This document shows, piece after piece, positions 3,073-25,552 of a DNA stretch of 25,552 bases; position 1 is the first letter of the stretch, and every line of letters starts with the position of its first letter. Below the pieces are notes generated by a model, which was given only the letters and a program-made list of their open reading frames with translations, made no database searches and was not told the origin of the DNA. The DNA comes from a virus (taxonomy: Duplodnaviria; Caudoviricetes). The translations under genes were made by a program, and so were the position numbers. The DNA is taken from the IMG/VR virus record IMGVR_UViG_3300014872_000008, positions 1 to 25,552 of that record; one strand, written 5' to 3'.

Positions 3073-3591
3073 CTACAACGCGGCTGGCTTAGGATGCCAG
3101 CGATTGAATCCGCGGTCGCGCCGATTGTTCGCTTGCTCTGTGGGTGTCGCCCATCGGCAATTGTCGGGCGAGTATGGCCCGTCGTTGTCGCGTCGGTCGA
3201 TCGAATGGCTCGGAGAAGGACGTGGCCCCATATCGGCGAGGAAGTGTTCGAAGTGGTCTCGCCATCGGTCGCAGACCATGATTCCGCGTCCACCGTACTC
3301 AGCATAGTCAGGCGTGCGCGGGTTCAGGCAGCGGTTCTTCAGCCGTTCCCACGTGTGGTACTCGACCGTGCGGCTCTGTCCGTGAGTGCTGTTCGCTGCG
3401 CTCGTTTGCTCCGCGTTGAAGCACCCGCACGACGTCGACTGCTTACCGAGATGGTCCTGGCGAATGGTTGTCAGTCGGCCGCAATCACATCGACATGCCC
3501 ACGCCCGGTGCCGGGCAGATGCCCGCGGGGCCTCGCCGATCACCGTCAACCGTCCAAACCGTTGCCCGGACACGTCTTTCAACGCTCGCAT
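3073..3591 (-). CDS. HNH homing endonuclease
   Basis: [35 protein letters not shown] and [26 protein letters not shown], typical of phage free-standing HNH endonucleases. Start 3591 preferred (3600 alternative). Confidence 0.88.
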
Positions 3592-3598
3592 GCAGAGC

Positions 3599-3604
3599 AT
3601 TTTA
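3599..3604 (-). promoter_or_regulatory. Putative -10 element (TAAAAT) for a leaderless HNH transcript
   Basis: Minus strand reads TAAAAT-gctctgc-ATG(3591), a 7-nt spacing with no SD. Confidence 0.45.
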
Positions 3605-3638
3605 CAGCGGAATACGTAATCAATGGGGAGTGTGTTGC

Positions 3639-5519
3639 GTGAAGTTGAAGATAGCTGAAGGTCTGAGTCTCCCTCTTGATGCTGTCACGCAGACGTTTCT
3701 CATCGTCGGTAAACGGGGCAGCGGTAAGAGCAATACCGCCGCTAGGTTCGTCGAGCAGCTCTACCACGCCCGGTTGCCCTTCGTGGTCCTCGACCCTGTC
3801 GACACATGGTGGGGCCTGAAAGCCGGACGCGATGGCGGGCGCGGGCTGGATGTCTACGTGTTCGGCGGCCGGAAAGCCGACCTACCGCTCGAAGCAGGAG
3901 CGGGCGCGCTAATCGCCGAGGTGTTATGCGAGCACCGGATGCCGATGGTGCTCTCGGTCAAGCACCTGTCAGGCCGTGAGCGGAGCGCGTTCATGGTCGC
4001 CTTCGCGCAGACGCTGTTCCAGAAGTGGGGCGGTGGTCCGTTGCACGTCGTGCTTGAGGAAGCGCACGAACTCGCGCCGCAAATGTCTGGCGGTCGTGGT
4101 GGCAGCAACCAGGACAACGAAGCGGCGATGCTGGGCGCCTTCAAACGCCTGTGGAAGCTCGGCCGGTCGTCGGGTATCGGCGGCACGGCGGTCACGCAGC
4201 GCCCGGCGTCGCTGTCGAAGGACATCACGACTCAGTCTGAGATCCTGATCGCGCACCGCACCATTGGCCCGCAAGACGTCAAGGCGATCGGCGAGTGGGT
4301 GAAGTACCACGGTCAGCGCGACGACATCTTGGCGGATCTACCGTCGATGCCGACCGGTGAAGCCGTTGTGTGGGCGCCGGAGTTCCCGGAAGGGAAGCCG
4401 CTCGGCCTGATGCGGACGCGCGTGCTCCTGCGCGAAACGTACGACTCGGCCTCGACGCCGAAGGTGGGCGAGCAGCGCGTCGAGCCGAAGGAACTCGCGG
4501 CCGTGGACCTAGATCGTCTGCGGTTGAAGATGGCGGCCACGATCGCGAAGGCCCAAGCCGACGACCCACGCGAACTAAGGAAGCAGCTCGCGGAGGCGAT
4601 GCGGGAACTGAACGCCTTGCGTTCAGCCGCGAAAGTGAACGCTGTGCTTGACAAGGCGGCGCCGGTCGGCAAGCCCGTGCCGGTCCTGACGGACGCCGAC
4701 CGCGAGACACTGGCGACCGTTCAGCGGTATCTGAAAAATATCGAGGCCGCGCTGGGCGCAGAGTCCGAGGCTTTGATCGCGACCTTCGAACACAAGGCCG
4801 AGAAGGTCTTCGCGCCCATCTTGGCGCGGTTCCACCAGGACGCCGAGACGATCCATCTCAACGGCCGGCAGGAGTTCGAAGCCATCCTGAATCGCGTTGG
4901 GTTCCAGCGCGTACTCGACAAGCTCGACCGCGTCACGGCCGTTCCGGCGCCGGCTCCACGACATACCCATACCCCACCACCACGCACGGCTCAGCCGTCA
5001 CCGGCTCCAACGCGTCAGGCGACGCCACGGACGCCGGTGGCGGCTGGCGATCGTGACCTCGGGAAGTGCGAGCGCACCATTCTCGGCGTGCTGTCCACGC
5101 ACGGCGCGTCCACGTCTGGACGGTTGACGCTGCTCGCCGGCTACCGGTACAGCGGAGGGTTCAAGAACAGCCTGAGCGCGTTGCGCCAGGCCGGCTACAT
5201 CGTGGGCGAGAACACCGGCGTCATGAGCATCACGGATGCCGGACAGGCCGCGCTGGGAGACATCCCGACGCTACCGACGAACGGATCGCTGGGCCAGTAC
5301 TGGCTGAACCATCCGTCGTTCGGGAAAGCCGAGCGGGCCATCCTGGAGGTCCTACTCGCGTCGCCGCGCGGTCTGACATCTGAGGCGATCTGTGCAGCGA
5401 CCGGCTACGCATACTCAGGCGGCTTCAAGAACTCGCTGTCGGCGCTACGCACGGCCGGCGTCATTGTCGGCAAGAACACCGAGGTCATGCGTCCCAACGA
5501 AGAACTGGTTCAGCCATGA
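3639..5519 (+). CDS. HerA/FtsK-like P-loop ATPase (DUF87-like) with coiled coil and two C-terminal wHTH repeats
   Basis: GTG start after GGGGAG; Walker A GKRGSGKS, Walker [22 protein letters not shown]; duplicated [20 protein letters not shown]. Confidence 0.82.
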
Positions 5520-5824
5520 CACCCCCGGACGCCCGCGTGCCGTTGGGGGCGTTGATTGCGAGGCTGCGTGAGGTAGTACCAGACGCGGATGAGGAGTTCA
5601 ACGCTCAGTGCGCCGTGCGCGATGACGCGGCGGATCGGCTGGCGGCCCTGGAGGCGCTGCTTGAGCGTGCCACGGCAGTCTGGATTGATGACAGTTGGGA
5701 AAATGGCGATAAACAATGCGCCGTATGTCTCGAAGACAAGCCATCACACGCCCCGGACTGCTGGCTGCGCGACCTGCTCGCGCTGGCGGGATCTGATGCT
5801 AAAATAAGCGGAGCGTCCGAGTGA
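5516..5824 (+). CDS. Hypothetical Zn-binding protein, 3' end possibly replaced by the TnpB element
   Basis: ATGA overlap; CAVC...HAPDC motif. Confidence 0.65.
   Translation: MTPPDARVPLGALIARLREVVPDADEEFNAQCAVRDDAADRLAALEALLERATAVWIDDSWENGDKQCAVCLEDKPSHAPDCWLRDLLALAGSDAKISGASE
5797..5805 (+). promoter_or_regulatory. Extended -10 promoter (TGcTAAAAT) upstream of tnpB
   Basis: TGnTAAAAT in an otherwise GC-rich context, followed by a hairpin leader. Confidence 0.45.
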
Positions 5825-6989
5825 TGGTGTCACTCGAAACGCCCCTCACCACTCGGACCGTTGAAGGCGGCCACGACATGGCTAGAACAAAGCCTACCAA
5901 ATCGATCATTCAGTGCCAGTTAAAGTTGAAGCTCCGGCCGGCTCAGGAGCGGATGCTGAACCGCTGGCTCTGGCACCTCACGGCCGTGTTCAATTGGGCG
6001 TACAAGACCGTTGAGCATAACGCCAACCAAGGGATCTATCTATCTCGTTACGATTTAGAGTCGCGTCTTGCTTTCCACTCAGGACGCATGGGTATTCCAG
6101 CCAGGGTGTTGGATGGTGCAGCTCGAACCGCGCACGATGCGTGGCAGCGGTGCTTTCAGCGCCTGGCTCGACGGCCGCGCATGAAAGGTCGTAGAAATCG
6201 CCTGAACAGCATCCTGTTTCGACAGGTGATTAATCGCGTGGAATGCGACCGGATCTTCGTGTCCGGGTTTGGCATGGTGCGATTTCATCGGCAAGAGATT
6301 CCGGCTGGACGGATCACAGGCGCGCGACTGATACGTCGCTCGTCTGGCTGGTATTTCAGTCTATTCGTTGAGGCCAGTCCTCGTTCCATTCCCGTCCTGT
6401 CGAGCGGAGAGATAGGCATCGATCCTGGTTTTGTGTCGCTGATCTCTCTGTCCACCGGAGAGAAAGTCGAACAGGCTCTCGAACTGAAACAAACCGCGAT
6501 GCGGTTGGCGCAGTCTCAGCGAGGCAGCGACAGGCGGCTCACGGCCAGACTCAAAGAGCGTGAAGCGAATCAGAGGAAAGACCGCAATCATAAACTCTCG
6601 CGCCGGCTTCTATCTGAGAATGCGTTGATCTGTTGGTCGAAGGATTCTCATCGAGCCATCGCGCGCACGTTCGGTAAAAGCGTGGCTAGCGCCGCGCATG
6701 GGCAGCTTCGGCAAATGCTCGCGTACAAATGCCGTGCAGGCGGTCGCGAGTTCATCGAAGTGCCCAACCGGTATTCCACTATGACCTGTTCAGCATGTGG
6801 GGCGAGAAGTGGCCCGACTGGCTACGCAGGCTTGTCAGTAAGGCAATGGACGTGTGGCTGTGGAGCCAGTTGGGACCGCGACGTCAACGCCGCGCTCAAC
6901 ACACTGATTGCCGGGCGCGGACTGCGCCTCGAACGAGTCGGCGACGGCTCATCAGGAATCGTCACGTGATGCAATACGACGATAGTCAC
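5798..6989 (+). mobile_element. Non-autonomous IS200/IS605-type (tnpB-only) element; boundaries inferred
   Basis: tnpB ORF, left hairpin 5818-5836 and right-end-like GGAATC-hairpin-GTCAC at 6955-6989; no tnpA in the window. Confidence 0.55.
5878..6969 (+). CDS. tnpB: TnpB RNA-guided nuclease family protein
   Basis: N-terminal LKLRP..Q HTH, RuvC-I GIDPG, RKDRNHKLSRRL, LRQMLAYK, Zn ribbon CSACG..WTCGCG, RuvC-III DRDVNAALN. GTG 5821 is an alternative start. Confidence 0.92.
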   Translation: MARTKPTKSIIQCQLKLKLRPAQERMLNRWLWHLTAVFNWAYKTVEHNANQGIYLSRYDLESRLAFHSGRMGIPARVLDGAARTAHDAWQRCFQRLARRPRMKGRRNRLNSILFRQVINRVECDRIFVSGFGMVRFHRQEIPAGRITGARLIRRSSGWYFSLFVEASPRSIPVLSSGEIGIDPGFVSLISLSTGEKVEQALELKQTAMRLAQSQRGSDRRLTARLKEREANQRKDRNHKLSRRLLSENALICWSKDSHRAIARTFGKSVASAAHGQLRQMLAYKCRAGGREFIEVPNRYSTMTCSACGARSGPTGYAGLSVRQWTCGCGASWDRDVNAALNTLIAGRGLRLERVGDGSSGIVT

Positions 6990-8250: not shown

Positions 8251-8468
8251 CGCTGACCCGCCTGAACCGCTTCTACTCACTCTACCTCTGGCGCACCCAC
8301 TACGTCTGCCGGTGCGGGGCGTTCCTGCCGAAGGATGGGCGCGAACTGCACGAGCAGTTCCACGCCGCGGCCAGAGAGTTCTTCCAACCACCGACTGGCA
8401 ACGACCTGGCGTGGATACGGCAGGCGCTTGAGGCTCAGCCCACGCCAAAAACGGAGACACCGCGATGA
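8247..8468 (+). CDS. Hypothetical protein (C2H2-like CRCG...HEQFH)
   Basis: ATGA overlaps at both ends. Confidence 0.65.
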   Translation: MTLTRLNRFYSLYLWRTHYVCRCGAFLPKDGRELHEQFHAAAREFFQPPTGNDLAWIRQALEAQPTPKTETPR

Positions 8469-8905
8469 TCCAGCCCATTTCACGACGCGGCTTTCTCTCA
8501 GCTCTGATGGCCGCGACGGCGTCAGCCTCCGTGCTGGCGATTGAGGACCCTGAGCGGTTGCTCTGGGAGCCCGGGAAGAAGACCATCATCGATCTCGGCG
8601 CCCAGATCGCGCCAGCGACGCTCCAAGAAACCACGCAGATCACGTCTGGCTTCCAGGCGATGCTGTTACAGGAGCTAGCGCAGGGGCGAGCACCGTTGCC
8701 AGTTCGGCCGCTGTATATGCCGGACCGCTACCGGATGACGCTAGGCAATGGGACCGAAATGAACTTCGATTCGGACTGGAAGCTACAGCGCGGCGCCGTG
8801 GGCGGACGGCCCATGAATGATCGCGAGAAGGCGAAGATGGCGGCCGAGTTCGATCACGCTCGACGCCAGAAGATCAACCTGCGCACCTTTCGACTGGAGG
8901 ATTGA
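8465..8905 (+). CDS. Twin-arginine signal peptide protein
   Basis: N-terminus MIQPISRRGFLSALMAATASASVLA fits S-R-R-x-F-L plus an Ala-rich h-region; followed by DPERLLWEPGKKT. Confidence 0.75.
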   Translation: MIQPISRRGFLSALMAATASASVLAIEDPERLLWEPGKKTIIDLGAQIAPATLQETTQITSGFQAMLLQELAQGRAPLPVRPLYMPDRYRMTLGNGTEMNFDSDWKLQRGAVGGRPMNDREKAKMAAEFDHARRQKINLRTFRLED

Positions 8906-8907
8906 GA

Positions 8908-9066
8908 ATGCCGAATCTAGGAATGACGGAGATGTTGATCATTGGCGGGATTGCGCTGCTCATCTTTGGGCCGAGTCAACTCCCGAAACTGGGTCGTTCG
9001 TTGGGGGCGACGATCCGAGAGTTCCGTGGCGTCGCCAAGGAGCTGCACGGCAAGGACGAGGAGTAG
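8908..9066 (+). CDS. tatA: TatA/E family twin-arginine translocase subunit (52 aa)
   Basis: Translated by hand: MPNLGMTEMLIIGGIALLIFGPSQLPKLGRSLGATIREFRGVAKELHGKDEE. It shows GxxE, a TM helix, the FG hinge and the LPxLGRSLG..IREFR amphipathic helix; GGAGG SD at 8896-8900. Confidence 0.93.
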   Translation: MPNLGMTEMLIIGGIALLIFGPSQLPKLGRSLGATIREFRGVAKELHGKDEE

Positions 9067-15971: not shown

Positions 15972-16235
15972 ATGCGCGCATCCTTCTCGATCGATAGCCT
16001 CCACGAACTTGAGATCACCGGTGACGTGCCACGGCACGAGCACGACCCGGCGAGCGTGTGTCTCAACGTCCTCCGCACGCCGCTCCCGGTGAAGAACGTC
16101 TATGGGCCGAAGGAGGCCGGACCGGAATACACCCAGGGACCGACCGAGACGATCATCTCGGTGAGCCTGCGTCCGAGCCATGCTCGGGCCATCGCGAGCG
16201 CGATGCTCTCGGCGGCCACAGAGGCGCGCGGATGA
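15972..16235 (+). CDS. Hypothetical protein
   Basis: AGGAG SD upstream of ATG 15972. Confidence 0.7.
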   Translation: MRASFSIDSLHELEITGDVPRHEHDPASVCLNVLRTPLPVKNVYGPKEAGPEYTQGPTETIISVSLRPSHARAIASAMLSAATEARG

Positions 16236-16513
16236 TGCGTGCCGGGCCTGTTCCGACGGATCTCCTGGCGGCGTCAGCCCGGGCGACCAGGCTCGCGGAC
16301 GAGCTCCATCGGCACGCGGACTGGTTGCAATCGATCCATCGCTGGGACGACGCCAGGGCGATCCGTGGCGCCGCGAGAAGCGCGGCCCAGATCGCGTGGC
16401 TGGCATCCGGCCGCGGCCAGCGCCGGGCGAGGCGCGTCGTCCACCCAGCAGACACGCCGGCCACGCGCGGCCTGCGTGCGCCGTTCCGCCCGTGGTGGCG
16501 CTTCTGGTGGTGA
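16232..16513 (+). CDS. Hypothetical protein with C-terminal PWWRFWW
   Basis: ATGA and GTGA overlaps with both neighbours. Confidence 0.6.
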   Translation: MMRAGPVPTDLLAASARATRLADELHRHADWLQSIHRWDDARAIRGAARSAAQIAWLASGRGQRRARRVVHPADTPATRGLRAPFRPWWRFWW

Positions 16514-17298
16514 CGCGCCACGACGCCGTTCTCGTGGAACTGGCGACCCGAACGAACGTCAAGTTCAACCGCTACTTCCCGACCTGCACGCCCGCGTGTC
16601 ACCCGACGTCCCTACGGAAGGAGGATCACAGCGGCCTGTGCCGGGCGCTCTACGTGAAGCATGCGCAGTTCATGGCCGCCGGCGCCATCCATCGGGAGCG
16701 GCTGTTCATGGCGGCCAACCGGATCGGGAAGACGGAGACGGTCTCGTTCGAGGTCGCGGCGCACATGACGGGCCTGTACCCGACATGGTGGAGGGGACGC
16801 GAGTTCGACCGACCGGTGCGCGCCTGGGCCTCTGGCGACACGATGCTGACCACGCGCGACATCCTCCAGGTCGCGCTGCTCGGGCCGGTGGACTGCGTCG
16901 ATACCAGAGACTGGCGCGGCATGCTCCCCGTCCACTTGATCGTCGACACGACCCGAAAGAGCGGTGGGGTGTCGAAGTGCCTCGACCAGGTGTGGGTTAA
17001 GCACGTCAGCGGTGGGCGCTCGATCTTGGAGTTCAAGAGCCATGACCAGGGTCGGCGGGCCTTCCAGGGCACCGAACAGGACGTCATCGTGCTCGACGAG
17101 GAGCCGCCGGACGACGTCTACACGGAGTGCCTGCTACGCACGATGACGACCGATGGCCTGATCCTGTGTTCCATGACGCCGCTCCAAGGGCTGACGCCGT
17201 TCGTGCAGCAATACCTCGAGACAGCCACGATGATTGATAGCGATGGCCTCGCCCAGAAGGCGAGCGAAGCGGTGTGGCCGAGTGGGAGTGCGGCATGA
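16510..17298 (+). CDS. terL: Terminase large subunit, N-terminal ATPase part
   Basis: Walker A AANRIGKT, TGLYPTWW.G, Walker B VIVLDEE, coupling motif MTPLQG; P22 gp2-like. Confidence 0.9.
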   Translation: MTRHDAVLVELATRTNVKFNRYFPTCTPACHPTSLRKEDHSGLCRALYVKHAQFMAAGAIHRERLFMAANRIGKTETVSFEVAAHMTGLYPTWWRGREFDRPVRAWASGDTMLTTRDILQVALLGPVDCVDTRDWRGMLPVHLIVDTTRKSGGVSKCLDQVWVKHVSGGRSILEFKSHDQGRRAFQGTEQDVIVLDEEPPDDVYTECLLRTMTTDGLILCSMTPLQGLTPFVQQYLETATMIDSDGLAQKASEAVWPSGSAA

Positions 17299-17486
17299 GC
17301 CGCTGTCCCATTTGCGACGGGGAGGGTTGTATTACTCCACATGAAGACGAGATCCCGTGGGGACTCGGACCCGCGCTGAGACCGGCGACAGTCAGGCGAC
17401 CACCGGTGCAAGTCGCTGATCCTCGCGTCCCAAGCGGCATACCGGCACCTGATGACGACGACCTCGACGGGGCGAGGATCTATTGA
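17295..17486 (+). CDS. Small protein (CPICDGEG) between the two terL halves
   Basis: GGGAG SD; ATGA overlap with terL-N and TTGA overlap with terL-C. Confidence 0.6.
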   Translation: MSRCPICDGEGCITPHEDEIPWGLGPALRPATVRRPPVQVADPRVPSGIPAPDDDDLDGARIY

Positions 17487-18229
17487 GTCGATTGGTCGTG
17501 TCCGCCACGTGGGATGACGCCCCGCACCTCGATGAGGCGACCAAGGCGCAGCTCTGGAACTCCATCCCGGCGTATCAGCGTGACGCTCGGACAAAAGGGA
17601 TCCCCCAACTGGGGTCCGGCGCGATCTACCCGTTTCCGGAAAGCCAGTTCAAGGTCGCGATCGCCGACGAGTTCGAACCGCCGAAGCACTGGCCGAGGGC
17701 GTTCGGCGGAGACTGTGCCCTCTCGGGCGTCACGGCGGCTGCGTGGGGGGCTCTCGATCGCGACAGCGACACGCTCTACGTCTACTCGGTCTACCGGCGA
17801 TCCCAGGCCGAGACGGCCGTCCATGCGGACGCCATCAAGGCGCGCGGGGTCTGGATCCCAGGCGTCATGGACGCCGCCGACGTGCTCGACCATGACCGGA
17901 CGCAGTTCATCACCCTCTACAAACGCCACGGGCTGGACGTCATGTTGCCGGACAAGGCGGTCGAGGCTGGCATCCAGGACGTCTACGACCGGATCAGCGC
18001 CGGGCGTCTGAAGGTGTTCGCGTCCTGCGTAGCGTTCTGGGACGAGTTCAGGCTCTACCAGCGCGACGAGCGCGGGCGCGTGGTGAAGAAGAACGATCAC
18101 GTCCTCGACGCGGTCCGTTACCTCGTGCGCACGGGCCTACGGCACGCGAAGGTGAAGCCCGAGCCGAAGGAGGAGGTCACGCATCTTGAGTATGAGCAGG
18201 GGCGCGCCAACCTCACGTGGATGCAGTAG
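17483..18229 (+). CDS. terL: Terminase large subunit, C-terminal (nuclease) part
   Basis: TWDDAPHL, RDARTKGIPQLGSGAIYP, GGDC, EFRLYQRD..VKKNDHVLDAVRY; TTG start. Confidence 0.9.
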   Translation: MSRLVVSATWDDAPHLDEATKAQLWNSIPAYQRDARTKGIPQLGSGAIYPFPESQFKVAIADEFEPPKHWPRAFGGDCALSGVTAAAWGALDRDSDTLYVYSVYRRSQAETAVHADAIKARGVWIPGVMDAADVLDHDRTQFITLYKRHGLDVMLPDKAVEAGIQDVYDRISAGRLKVFASCVAFWDEFRLYQRDERGRVVKKNDHVLDAVRYLVRTGLRHAKVKPEPKEEVTHLEYEQGRANLTWMQ

Positions 18230-19237: not shown

Positions 19238-19525
19238 ATGGCGAAGCCCAAGCCTGACTACGGCGCAGTGGCGAACCACGGTCTGCGCCGGCAAGCCCAT
19301 CTCGAGCGTCTCGCCACGCTCGAACGGCAGCGCGATGAGGACTGGCCACGTGTCCAGGCAGCGCTCGAACGGGCCGAGGAAGCTCGAATGATCACGCTCG
19401 CGCAGGGCATCCATACGGAGCAATTGCTCCAACAGATCTTCGCCCAGGTGCCAGAGGACCGACGGTCGCAGGTCGAAGCGCGGATTCGTCCGTTCACGAA
19501 GATCCAGGTGTCGGTCGATGGATAG
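19238..19525 (+). CDS. Hypothetical helical protein
   Basis: AGGTGG upstream; overlaps the next gene. Confidence 0.6.
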   Translation: MAKPKPDYGAVANHGLRRQAHLERLATLERQRDEDWPRVQAALERAEEARMITLAQGIHTEQLLQQIFAQVPEDRRSQVEARIRPFTKIQVSVDG

Positions 19526-19832
19526 ACGCGCGTTCTTGAAGGCGATTGGGATAGGTGCCGCCAGCATGGCTGGTGCCATGACCCTTGATCCCGAACTGGC
19601 GCTCTGGGTGCCAGGGCGCAAGACGTTCTTTCTGCCGACTACTGTTGTGCTTGGGCCAGGCAACACGTTCCTGACCATCGAACAGATCACGCGCGAAGCG
19701 CTCCGCATGTTAGAGAGCAACGTGTCGTTCGCTCGGCGCATCAATCGTCGCTACGATGAGCCGTTCACTGCCGGGGCCGGGACGATCGTCAGCATTCCAG
19801 CGCCCCCGCGATACGTATACGCACTCACGTAG
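19518..19832 (+). CDS. Twin-arginine signal protein fused to a copy of the coat-protein N-terminus
   Basis: MDRRAFLKAIGIGAASMAGAM + DPELALWVPGRKT + NTFLTIEQITREALRMLESN...PPRY, which aligns with the coat ORF in this window. Confidence 0.82.
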   Translation: MDRRAFLKAIGIGAASMAGAMTLDPELALWVPGRKTFFLPTTVVLGPGNTFLTIEQITREALRMLESNVSFARRINRRYDEPFTAGAGTIVSIPAPPRYVYALT

Positions 19833-19949: not shown

Positions 19950-20025
19950 TGCTGGGTAGAGCAGTGGCCAGCTCGTTCGGCTCATAACCGAAAGGTCGCG
20001 GGTTCGAATCCCGCCCCAGCTACCA
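19950..20025 (+). tRNA. tRNA-Met (CAT), initiator-like
   Basis: Full cloverleaf: acceptor tGCTGGG/CCCAGCt, D stem GAGC/GCTC, anticodon stem TTCGG/CCGAA with CAT at 19983-85, T arm GCGGG-TTCGAAT-CCCGC, encoded ACCA. Confidence 0.95.
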
Positions 20026-24442: not shown

Positions 24443-25552
24443 ATGACTCCTACCTCGCTCTCCAAGTTCTGGGTGCATGACTCGCTGTTCGTGCGCCTCG
24501 GCACACTGCTCGTCGTGGCCCTTATGGTGGCCCTGTCGTGGGCGACCCCGGCCAGCACGATCAGTTTGGCCGACAACGTCCTGCTCACGATTGCGATGAT
24601 CACGCGCGAGGCATTGCGCGTGCTCGAGAACAACCTCACCTTCACGAAAAAGGTGAACCGGCAGTTCGATGACAAGTTCGGGGTCGAAGGCGCTAAGATC
24701 GGCACCGTCGTGAACGTGCGGAAGCCACCCCGCTACGTCACGCGCACCGGCCAGGCCCTGCAGGTCCAGGACGCGGTCGAAACGCAGGTACCGGTCACGC
24801 TCAATCAGCAGATTGGCGTGGACCTGTCGTTCTCATCGGCTGACCTCGCGCTGTCGATCGATGACTTCTCGCAGCGGTTCATCTCCCCAGCGATTGCCGC
24901 CGTGGCGAACCGGATCGACCAGCTCGGGCTGCAGCAGTACATCAACCTGAACCAGATCGTGGGCACGCCCGGCACGGTGCCGAACGCGCTCCTGACGTAT
25001 CTGCTCGCTGGCGTGGCGCTCGACAATAGCGCGGCGCCCATGGACGGCCAGCGGTCGATCACGATCAATCCGCTCATGCAGGCGACGATCGTCGACGCCC
25101 TGAAGGGACTCTTTCAGCAGGCGACGGCCATCGCGAGCCAGTACGAGAAGGGCGTGATGGGCACGGCGGCCGGCTTCGACTGGCAGATGGACCAGAACAT
25201 CGCCACGAACACGATCGGCCCGCTCGGCGGGACCCCGCTCGTGGCTGGCGCTGGCCAAACGGGCGCGACCCTGGCCACCGACGGCTGGACCGCCGCGGCA
25301 GCGAATCGACTCCTGCGTGGCAACACGTTCACGATCGCTGGGGTCTACCAGGTGAACCCGCAGAGCCGCGAGTCCACCGGCGTGCTCCAGTCGTTCCTCG
25401 TGACGGCGGACACAGCCAGCGACGGCGCGGGACTGGCCTCCATCCCGATCTTCCCGTCGATCATCACGTCCGGTCAGTTCCAGACGGTGACTGGATCCCC
25501 GGCCGACAATGCGGTGATCACGGTCCTCGGCGCGGCCAACACGGTCTCGCCG
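24443..25552 (+). CDS. Major capsid protein, P22 coat-like (3' truncated)
   Basis: Translated by hand: ...ADNVLLTIAMITREALRVLENNLTF...KIGTVVNVRKPPRY...FSSADLALSIDDFSQRFI.PA...GFDWQMDQN; runs off the window. Start is ATG 24443 or TTG 24566. Confidence 0.9.
   Translation, partial: MTPTSLSKFWVHDSLFVRLGTLLVVALMVALSWATPASTISLADNVLLTIAMITREALRVLENNLTFTKKVNRQFDDKFGVEGAKIGTVVNVRKPPRYVTRTGQALQVQDAVETQVPVTLNQQIGVDLSFSSADLALSIDDFSQRFISPAIAAVANRIDQLGLQQYINLNQIVGTPGTVPNALLTYLLAGVALDNSAAPMDGQRSITINPLMQATIVDALKGLFQQATAIASQYEKGVMGTAAGFDWQMDQNIATNTIGPLGGTPLVAGAGQTGATLATDGWTAAAANRLLRGNTFTIAGVYQVNPQSRESTGVLQSFLVTADTASDGAGLASIPIFPSIITSGQFQTVTGSPADNAVITVLGAANTVSP

What the first reader, a model, noticed from the sequence alone, without database searches (positions are those of the whole stretch)
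8465..9066. Phage-encoded TatA directly downstream of a twin-arginine substrate
Seen: a 52-aa ORF (below the ORF-track cutoff) with the full TatA signature and its own SD starts 3 nt after a gene beginning SRRGFL plus an h-region. Known: TatA is the channel-forming subunit of the Tat folded-protein exporter and needs TatC, which is absent from this window. Inference: the phage supplies TatA to boost, redirect or jam the host Tat translocase for its own substrates. Alternatively TatA oligomers could depolarise the membrane (exclusion or lysis).
Basis: partly seen in the sequence, partly recalled or inferred. Interest (0 to 1): 0.9.

Follow-up and report, generated by a model that had tools for sequence, protein, structure and literature searches.

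The report
Phage TatA with twin-arginine cargo family
An uncultured phage carries an intact-looking gene for TatA, the membrane-opening subunit of the bacterial folded-protein exporter, packed against a gene with a twin-arginine export-type leader; the pairing recurs in many phage-like fragments and likely helps the phage send its own small proteins, some carrying pieces of its coat protein, through the host's exporter.

Summary
Observation confirmed. 8908-9066 is a TatA (Pfam 64 bits, cut-off 21; above the TatA/E cut-off, below TatB's) in a P22-like phage record without tatC. The upstream gene has a twin-arginine leader, just under the curated cut-off. The link recurs: 16 of 25 other phage-type tatA loci have an adjacent twin-arginine gene, half upstream and half downstream, against 4 of 133 other tatA loci. 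The partner belongs to a large phage family: leader, fixed DPERLLWxPG motif, then variable cargo, which in 15 of 47 motif-picked cases is a piece of coat protein. The window holds such a fusion at 19518-19832. The TatA keeps the residues needed for function, so boosting host TatC-dependent export is likelier (0.6) than jamming or lysis. Against a strict requirement: only 1 of 49 motif-picked records has tatA. Export itself is untested and the host unresolved. Eight literature searches found no description; this scan's own unchecked notes report similar pairs on other DNA.

The parts
8465..8905 (+). 146-aa twin-arginine protein, the tatA-coupled partner; its start overlaps the previous gene's stop
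   Evidence: TIGR01409 15.9 bits vs cut-off 16.7; family
8480..8539 (+). twin-arginine motif SRRGFL and Ala-rich hydrophobic helix (residues 6-25); possible signal peptidase site after residue 25 (inferred)
   Evidence: sequence; predicted helix 7-23; the family profile's weak PDB hits are mostly to N-terminal signal stretches
8546..8593 (+). family motif DPERLLWEPGKKTI (residues 28-43), fixed across otherwise unrelated cargoes
   Evidence: W34 invariant; D28, L33, P36, G37, K39 in at least 90% of 69 sequences
8702..8869 (+). small predicted three-stranded sheet plus helix (residues about 80-135); among fetched loci this cargo type was found only in records that carry tatA
   Evidence: model, block pLDDT 88-97; profile hits in window, G002/G003, G005 and L042
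8896..8901 (+). ribosome-binding site of tatA inside the end of the upstream gene (translational coupling inferred)
8908..9066 (+). TatA, 52 aa: membrane helix 5-20 with E8, FGP hinge, amphipathic helix 25-42 with F39-R40, very short tail
19518..19832 (+). second family member, 104 aa: twin-arginine leader and motif fused to a copy of the N-terminus of the phage's own coat protein
   Evidence: 45% identity over 64 aa to own coat, E 2e-17; hits annotated P22-type coats in 10 GenBank phage records; PHROG 283
24566..25552 (+). the phage's own P22-type coat gene (runs off the contig end; start codon inferred), source of the fragment in 19518-19832

Best explanation
The phage encodes a TatA with its key residues intact directly behind a twin-arginine gene, and this TatA likely joins the host's TatC-containing translocase to add capacity for moving the phage's own twin-arginine proteins across the inner membrane. 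Shown: TatA identity, no phage tatC, repeated adjacency to twin-arginine genes, and a large client family with a fixed post-leader motif and variable cargo. Inferred steps: (1) the two genes are co-translated; (2) the leader is recognised by host TatC; (3) phage TatA oligomerises alone or mixed with host TatA, like a substrate-tuned TatE/TatAc paralogue; (4) the roughly 55-residue folded cargo crosses the membrane and stays anchored by the leader or is cut after residue 25; (5) there it most likely acts on the envelope against competing phages or host sensors. Step 5 is the weakest. TatA would be an optional booster, kept mainly beside long-leader members.
For: TatA above TatA/E cut-offs, below TatB's. 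Conserved residues in 25 relatives, with 421 of 759 codons for unchanged residues differing silently, which points to purifying selection. Twin-arginine gene within 230 bp on the same strand in 16 of 25 phage-type loci (12 within 30 bp; 8 upstream, 8 downstream, differing cargoes), against 4 of 133 other tatA loci and 29 of 1049 other ORFs in 10 twin-arginine-bearing phage records. All 5 distinct viral records picked by this tatA carry such genes. tatC in 0 of 26 phage-type loci and 0 of 29 viral records. A second, differently shaped TatA overlaps a twin-arginine gene of another family in a complete 100-kb viral record and sits beside one in a related record, neither with tatC. RR is kept in 48 of 48 members found by the downstream motif alone. 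Leaders beside tatA are longer: RR-to-D spacing of 20 or more in 7 of 12, against 2 of 48. TatA is used in large excess over TatC and stand-alone paralogues improve transport of particular substrates (PMC13673990, sections 5 and 8).
Against: Only 1 of 49 motif-picked viral records, and 0 of 12 near-complete ones, has tatA, so most such phages manage without it. The window's leader misses the TIGR01409 and Pfam cut-offs. In 46 of 48 motif-picked members only 13-18 residues separate RR from the motif, short for a membrane-spanning signal (recalled). Four of 25 loci show no twin-arginine gene, two have one only 2.6 kb or over 10 kb away, and one neighbour has the motif but no RR. The 230-bp limit and the spacing cut were set after seeing the data, and the loci are related, so the p-values overstate. 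The family was found in 0 of 401 genomes of the suspected host phylum, so the host and its Tat type are unknown. Why small proteins would need extra TatA is unexplained.
Confidence: 0.6

Rival explanations
1. Jamming: the leaders are dead-end ligands that occupy host TatC, and the phage TatA traps or diverts host TatA, shutting down export of host envelope and respiratory proteins.
For: Most leaders are short; cargo is highly variable while leader and motif are fixed; tatA is dispensable; K27 is kept in 24 of 25 phage-type TatA where most of the close cellular ones printed have E.
Against: The residue whose loss gives a dominant-negative TatA is retained in 23 of 25. Extra working TatA would relieve a jam rather than cause it (inference). 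A chromosomal tatA beside tatC has the same K27 stretch.
Confidence: 0.13
2. Membrane weakening: signal-triggered TatA assembly depolarises the membrane, for superinfection exclusion or to time lysis, and export is incidental.
For: TatA assemblies destabilise membranes (PMC13673990 section 8) and signal binding alone recruits TatA (PMC13186574, passage). One earlier AI note places a phage tatA before a lysin (untested here).
Against: No endolysin or holin family among 49 window ORFs or 77 neighbours of metagenome loci. The pair sits among early genes here, and near terminase or DNA-metabolism genes elsewhere. The record is only 67% complete, so a distant lysis module is not excluded.
Confidence: 0.12
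3. Bait-and-export: leader-plus-coat-fragment proteins bind capsid-sensing host proteins or a rival phage's coat subunits and carry them to or across the membrane as Tat hitchhikers; TatA is there because such complexes are large.
For: Coat-like cargo in 15 of 47 (0 in 10 shuffles) and 26 of 149 (0-1 in shuffles), drawn from several parts of the coat. The fragments are about 30-65% identical to the phage's own coat, yet still keep its motifs. The window has one.
Against: Only 2 of 14 tatA-adjacent partners tested are coat-like, and the window's partner is not. Coat-fragment fusions abound in records without tatA. Short fragments may not fold, and may be recombination debris behind a useful leader.
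Confidence: 0.1
4. Passive linkage: tatA and a Tat substrate were captured together from a host once and travel as a neutral cassette.
For: 24 of 26 phage-type TatA fall in one group with two chromosomal tatA genes, compatible with a single capture.
Against: The partner changes side and cargo type, a second TatA type shows the same pairing, silent sites are diverged while key residues are fixed, and the partner family was not found in the cellular genomes searched.
Confidence: 0.05

Closest known systems
TatA/TatE family (PF02416, TIGR01411); best solved relatives chloroplast TatA 7b7o and TatAd 2l16
   Same: Membrane helix, FGP hinge, amphipathic helix with conserved Phe; minimal length, the tail being non-essential (PMC13673990 section 5).
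   Different: Phage-borne, no tatC or tatB in the record, FR instead of FK, translationally packed against a phage substrate.
Stand-alone paralogues E. coli TatE and B. subtilis TatAc
   Same: Extra TatA outside a tatC operon; reported to prefer or improve transport of particular substrates (PMC13673990 sections 5 and 8).
   Different: Those are chromosomal; TatAc is monocistronic. Here the gene is viral and coupled to its presumed client.
B. subtilis TatAdCd, a substrate-dedicated two-component system
   Same: Translocase part dedicated to particular substrates (its linkage to phoD is recalled).
   Different: That operon includes tatC; this one depends on a host TatC.
P22-type coat protein (PHROG 283)
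   Same: 19518-19832 and many relatives carry recognisable coat segments.
   Different: Only short segments, fused behind a twin-arginine leader; they cannot form a whole coat fold (inference).
TatC annotation in a marine virus with a P22-like portal (PMC10564846, figure legend only)
   Same: A Tat component annotated in a phage genome.
   Different: TatC rather than TatA, an automatic label, and no other mention in that paper's main text.

Membership tests
TatA/TatE | Score above curated family cut-offs | tested here: met
   PF02416 64 vs 21; TIGR01411 57.9 vs 53.9; NF011430 64.5 vs 62
TatA/TatE | Short N-terminal membrane helix, hinge, amphipathic helix | tested here: met
   Residues 5-20 mean hydropathy 2.0; FGP at 20-22; residues 25-42 hydrophobic moment 0.57
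TatA/TatE | [quoted passage not shown] | tested here: met
   F39 present, K replaced by R; F in 23 of 25 and R in 24 of 25 relatives. The effect of R is untested; the TatB chain of 9e03 also has FR.
TatA/TatE | Supports transport together with TatC; N-out topology | not testable with these tools
   Needs complementation and topology assays
TatB | Score above TIGR01410 cut-off | tested here: not met
   37.3 vs 56.5
Tat substrate (8465-8905) | Z-R-R-x-hydrophobic-hydrophobic motif near the N-terminus (definition) | tested here: met
   S-R-R-G-F-L at 6-11; RR in 48 of 48 motif-picked relatives
Tat substrate (8465-8905) | Hydrophobic h-region after the motif | tested here: met
   Mean hydropathy 1.4 over 13 residues; predicted helix 7-23
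Tat substrate (8465-8905) | Score above curated Tat-signal model | tested here: not met
   TIGR01409 15.9 vs 16.7; PF10518 15.6 vs 22.7; 54 of 69 relatives hit TIGR01409 at E up to 0.05
Tat substrate (8465-8905) | Signal peptidase site or lipobox | tested here: inconclusive
   AxA-like triplets in 126 of 146 relatives, expected in Ala-rich sequence; Cys in 2 of 146, so not lipoproteins. SignalP/TatP not on hand.
Tat substrate (8465-8905) | Folded passenger domain | tested here: inconclusive
   Confident local model for residues 80-135, pTM 0.48 overall
Tat substrate (8465-8905) | TatC- and RR-dependent export | not testable with these tools
   Needs a reporter assay
Self-contained TatAC operon | tatC encoded with tatA | tested here: not met
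   0 of 26 phage-type loci; none in own record (67% complete) or in two complete records with another TatA type
Lysis cassette | Endolysin or holin beside the gene | tested here: inconclusive
   None among 49 window ORFs or 77 neighbours scanned; divergent lysis genes may be missed and contigs are partial

The most novel reading that the evidence does not exclude
A phage-run export system: a family of hundreds to over a thousand clusters of phage proteins puts a twin-arginine leader and a fixed docking motif in front of swappable cargo, often pieces of the phage's own coat, and uses host TatC plus phage TatA to drag bound partners (capsid-sensing immune proteins or a rival's coat subunits) out of the cytoplasm, or to display capsid mimics in the periplasm.
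Probability: 0.2. Interest if true: 0.95.

Novelty: new variant of a known kind. Interest (0 to 1): 0.8.

Why it matters
Tat is treated as a housekeeping pathway of cells and organelles; neither 2026 review consulted mentions a phage-encoded Tat component. A viral TatA tied to viral clients would show phages extending a host secretion machine rather than merely blocking it. It gives a natural minimal TatA and many natural leader variants, spaced in steps of about one helix turn, for asking what TatC accepts and when TatA is limiting. The coat-fragment fusions point to a possible new route of counter-defence or phage-phage exclusion.

Tried and rejected
Fold searches of the partner's model gave nothing usable: 0 matches at E up to 0.001 in PDB and in viral models, best Z 4.2 among 48,161 chains; this does not show a new fold. 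The ESM Atlas gave only signal-driven look-alikes. No longer or fused form of the cargo domain was found (weak evidence). No RNA holder listed. No GenBank phage matches either gene. No promoter found; two terminator-like sites equal chance. A single-sequence search for the partner in viral contigs failed; alignments were needed. Host search: the family was not found in 5 and then 401 genomes (only 8 candidates scored per genome); cluster look-ups gave no taxon. Portal-fragment cargo: 6 of 149 (shuffles 0-2) but 0 of 47, so treated as weak. My early guess that tatA partners are mostly coat fusions was rejected (2 of 14), as was the guess that K27 is phage-specific. The careful tree did not finish; the quick tree was used. 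A terminase profile did not hit the three records with the second TatA types, so their viral status rests on the collection's classing. Chimeric assembly: not supported. Look-ups of earlier notes by sequence and by place were empty.

Full report
OBSERVATION. The window is a whole virus record of 25,552 bases, estimated 67% complete, with terminase, P22-like portal and scaffold genes and a P22-type coat gene that runs off the end. ORF 8465-8905 (146 aa) carries SRRGFL at residues 6-11. After its stop and two further bases, ORF 8908-9066 (52 aa) begins, with GGAGGA 6 nt upstream inside the first gene. The small ORF scores 64 bits on PF02416 (cut-off 21), passes TIGR01411 tatA/E and fails TIGR01410 tatB. 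Its best solved relatives are chloroplast TatA and TatAd. The upstream protein falls just short on TIGR01409, 15.9 against 16.7. No tatC is present.

THE TATA LOOKS FUNCTIONAL. It has a hydrophobic helix 5-20 with E8, the FGP hinge and an amphipathic helix ending in F39-R40. I gathered relatives with an alignment of 51 close homologues: 6 viral loci, the best 80 of 278 metagenome loci and the best 80 of 154 genome loci. 'Phage-type' means 80 bits or more on that profile among viral and metagenome loci: 35 rows, 25 after dropping the window, its copy L033 and 8 duplicates. At least two genome loci also pass 80 bits but lie beside tatC (L126, L145) and were counted as cellular. In the 25, G5, E8, F20, G21, P22, P26, G29 and G33 are invariant, F39 is kept in 23 and R40 in 24; 421 of 759 codons for unchanged residues differ silently. 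F39A makes E. coli TatA inactive and dominant-negative (PMC13186574, passage). Neighbours were scanned for 17 of the 20 metagenome-only loci: 12 have phage-family hits, 5 of them terminases. A quick tree on 54 columns puts 24 of 26 phage-type sequences in one group (SH-aLRT 94) with the two Acidobacteriota-labelled tatA genes and L104. Because the label came from a similarity score this is partly circular; it hints at a donor and proves none.

THE PAIRING RECURS. A twin-arginine gene lies within 230 bp on the same strand in 16 of 25 loci, 12 of them within 30 bp, 8 upstream and 8 downstream. Three more have a family neighbour without visible RR: two cut by the contig start, one lacking RR. Two have such genes 2.6 kb and over 10 kb away, and four short contigs show none. 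The same rule gives 4 of 133 other tatA loci and 29 of 1049 other ORFs in 10 twin-arginine-bearing phage records (my ORF caller over-calls, so the true background may be about twice that 2.8%). The limit was chosen after seeing the data and the loci are related, so I rely on the contrast and on the changing partners, not on the p-value. tatC occurs in 0 of 26 phage-type loci but in 42 other loci, and in 0 of 29 viral records (the six with tatA are 18-81% complete). A scan for a host-like TatA motif gave 11 viral loci, 3 encoding TatA; in 2 related complete 100-kb records a twin-arginine gene of another family abuts it, without tatC. So the pairing appears to have arisen at least twice.

THE PARTNER FAMILY. 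After the hydrophobic helix comes a fixed motif, DPERLLWxPGxKTI. Searching viral contigs by that motif alone gave 49 loci; 48 of 48 distinct hits have RR plus two hydrophobic residues 13-21 residues upstream. A profile search found 1706 clusters at E up to 0.001 and 92 at 1e-10 (the weak tail may include ordinary Tat signals); 147 of the best 150 match the RR pattern. Spacing clusters at 13-14, 17-18 and 20-22, about one helix turn apart. Leaders beside tatA are more often long: 7 of 12 at 20 or more, against 2 of 48. Records carry 1-5 such genes. What follows the motif varies widely. Against a profile of 19 coat proteins from these phages, 15 of 47 motif-picked cargoes match (0 in 10 shuffles), as do 26 of 149 from the profile search (0-1 in shuffles), from the N-arm, middle and C-terminal parts of the coat. 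Where the own coat is known, identity is about 30-65% and the own coat ranks 1st to 9th of 19: old captures that keep the motifs. The window's second member, 19518-19832, is 45% identical over 64 residues to its own coat's N-terminus. The tatA-coupled partner is not coat-like. Its cargo is a small predicted sheet-plus-helix domain that, among fetched loci, occurred only in tatA-bearing records.

LIMITS. tatA is rare in the family: 1 of 49 motif-picked records, 0 of 12 near-complete ones. The implication runs from tatA to twin-arginine gene, not the reverse. The family was not found in 401 genomes of the suspected host phylum. Nothing here shows expression, binding or export.

MECHANISM. Best reading (0.6): co-translated phage TatA adds to the host pool and helps host TatC move the phage's clients, as TatE and TatAc do for particular substrates (PMC13673990, sections 5 and 8). 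Small proteins without exposed hydrophobic stretches are tolerated by Tat even if unfolded (section 10). Jamming (0.13) fits the short leaders but not the intact TatA. Depolarisation or lysis (0.12) fits TatA biophysics but not the gene context. Bait-and-export (0.10) fits the coat fragments but not the tatA-adjacent cargo. Neutral linkage (0.05) fails on partner turnover. These are not fully exclusive: short-leader members may bind or anchor while long-leader members are exported.

WHAT IS KNOWN. Eight full-text searches (listings and abstract starts) showed no paper on a phage TatA or this family. PMC13673990: outline, keyword passages and sections 5-10 read; its four 'phage' mentions concern other matters. 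PMC13186574: passages read; 'phage' does not occur. PMC10564846: one passage, a figure legend listing a TatC annotation in a marine virus. bioRxiv 10.64898/2026.09.13.751334: passages, host Tat only. I saw no supplements; viromics annotation tables may list tatA, and most subscription papers are outside the library. This scan's earlier AI notes describe phage tatA with twin-arginine cargo, and coat-fragment fusions, on other DNA. I had reached both points before that look-up and do not count the notes as support.

VERDICT. Real, non-random and apparently undescribed in print. The TatA is a member of a known family in a new setting; the client family has no curated model beyond the generic signal. 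Novelty: new variant of a known kind, with a 0.2 chance of a categorically new decoy-export system. Interest 0.8.

Noticed in passing
window 19518-19832 and 24566-25552: Second twin-arginine gene carries a diverged copy of the phage's own coat N-terminus.
   Followed up: yes
window 16180-17298, 17274-17486, 17483-18229: Terminase large subunit is in two ORFs with a short ORF between; the Pfam N-terminal domain is shared across the break (positions 1-153 and 164-214). A similar N-terminal piece followed by short ORFs appears in L038.
   Followed up: no
window 5821-6969: TnpB-like gene (IS200/IS605 family hits) with lower G+C inserted among early genes.
   Followed up: no
window 19950-20025: tRNA-Met gene between the second twin-arginine gene and the portal.
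   Followed up: no
window 3468-5519: 683-aa HerA/FtsK-like ATPase.
   Followed up: no
L007 6905-10072: Array of five twin-arginine genes directly downstream of tatA, two with coat C-terminal pieces.
   Followed up: partly
L250 954-1976: Three tandem twin-arginine genes, one with the coat N-terminus and one with the coat C-terminus, about 16 kb from tatA in record G006.
   Followed up: partly
L046 1348-1884: tatA-adjacent family member that has the downstream motif but no twin arginines.
   Followed up: partly
L374 2332-3092: Different TatA type overlapping a twin-arginine gene, next to genes that look like glycosyl- and methyltransferases (by eye), in a complete 100-kb viral record.
   Followed up: partly
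proteins P0003/P0007 and P0058/P0049: Partner-family and TatA proteins share identical longest-contig lengths (11597; 11558), suggesting two more pairs; contigs not seen.
   Followed up: no
proteins P0091, P0188, P0201: Cargoes with portal-protein segments; not seen in the motif-picked set.
   Followed up: partly
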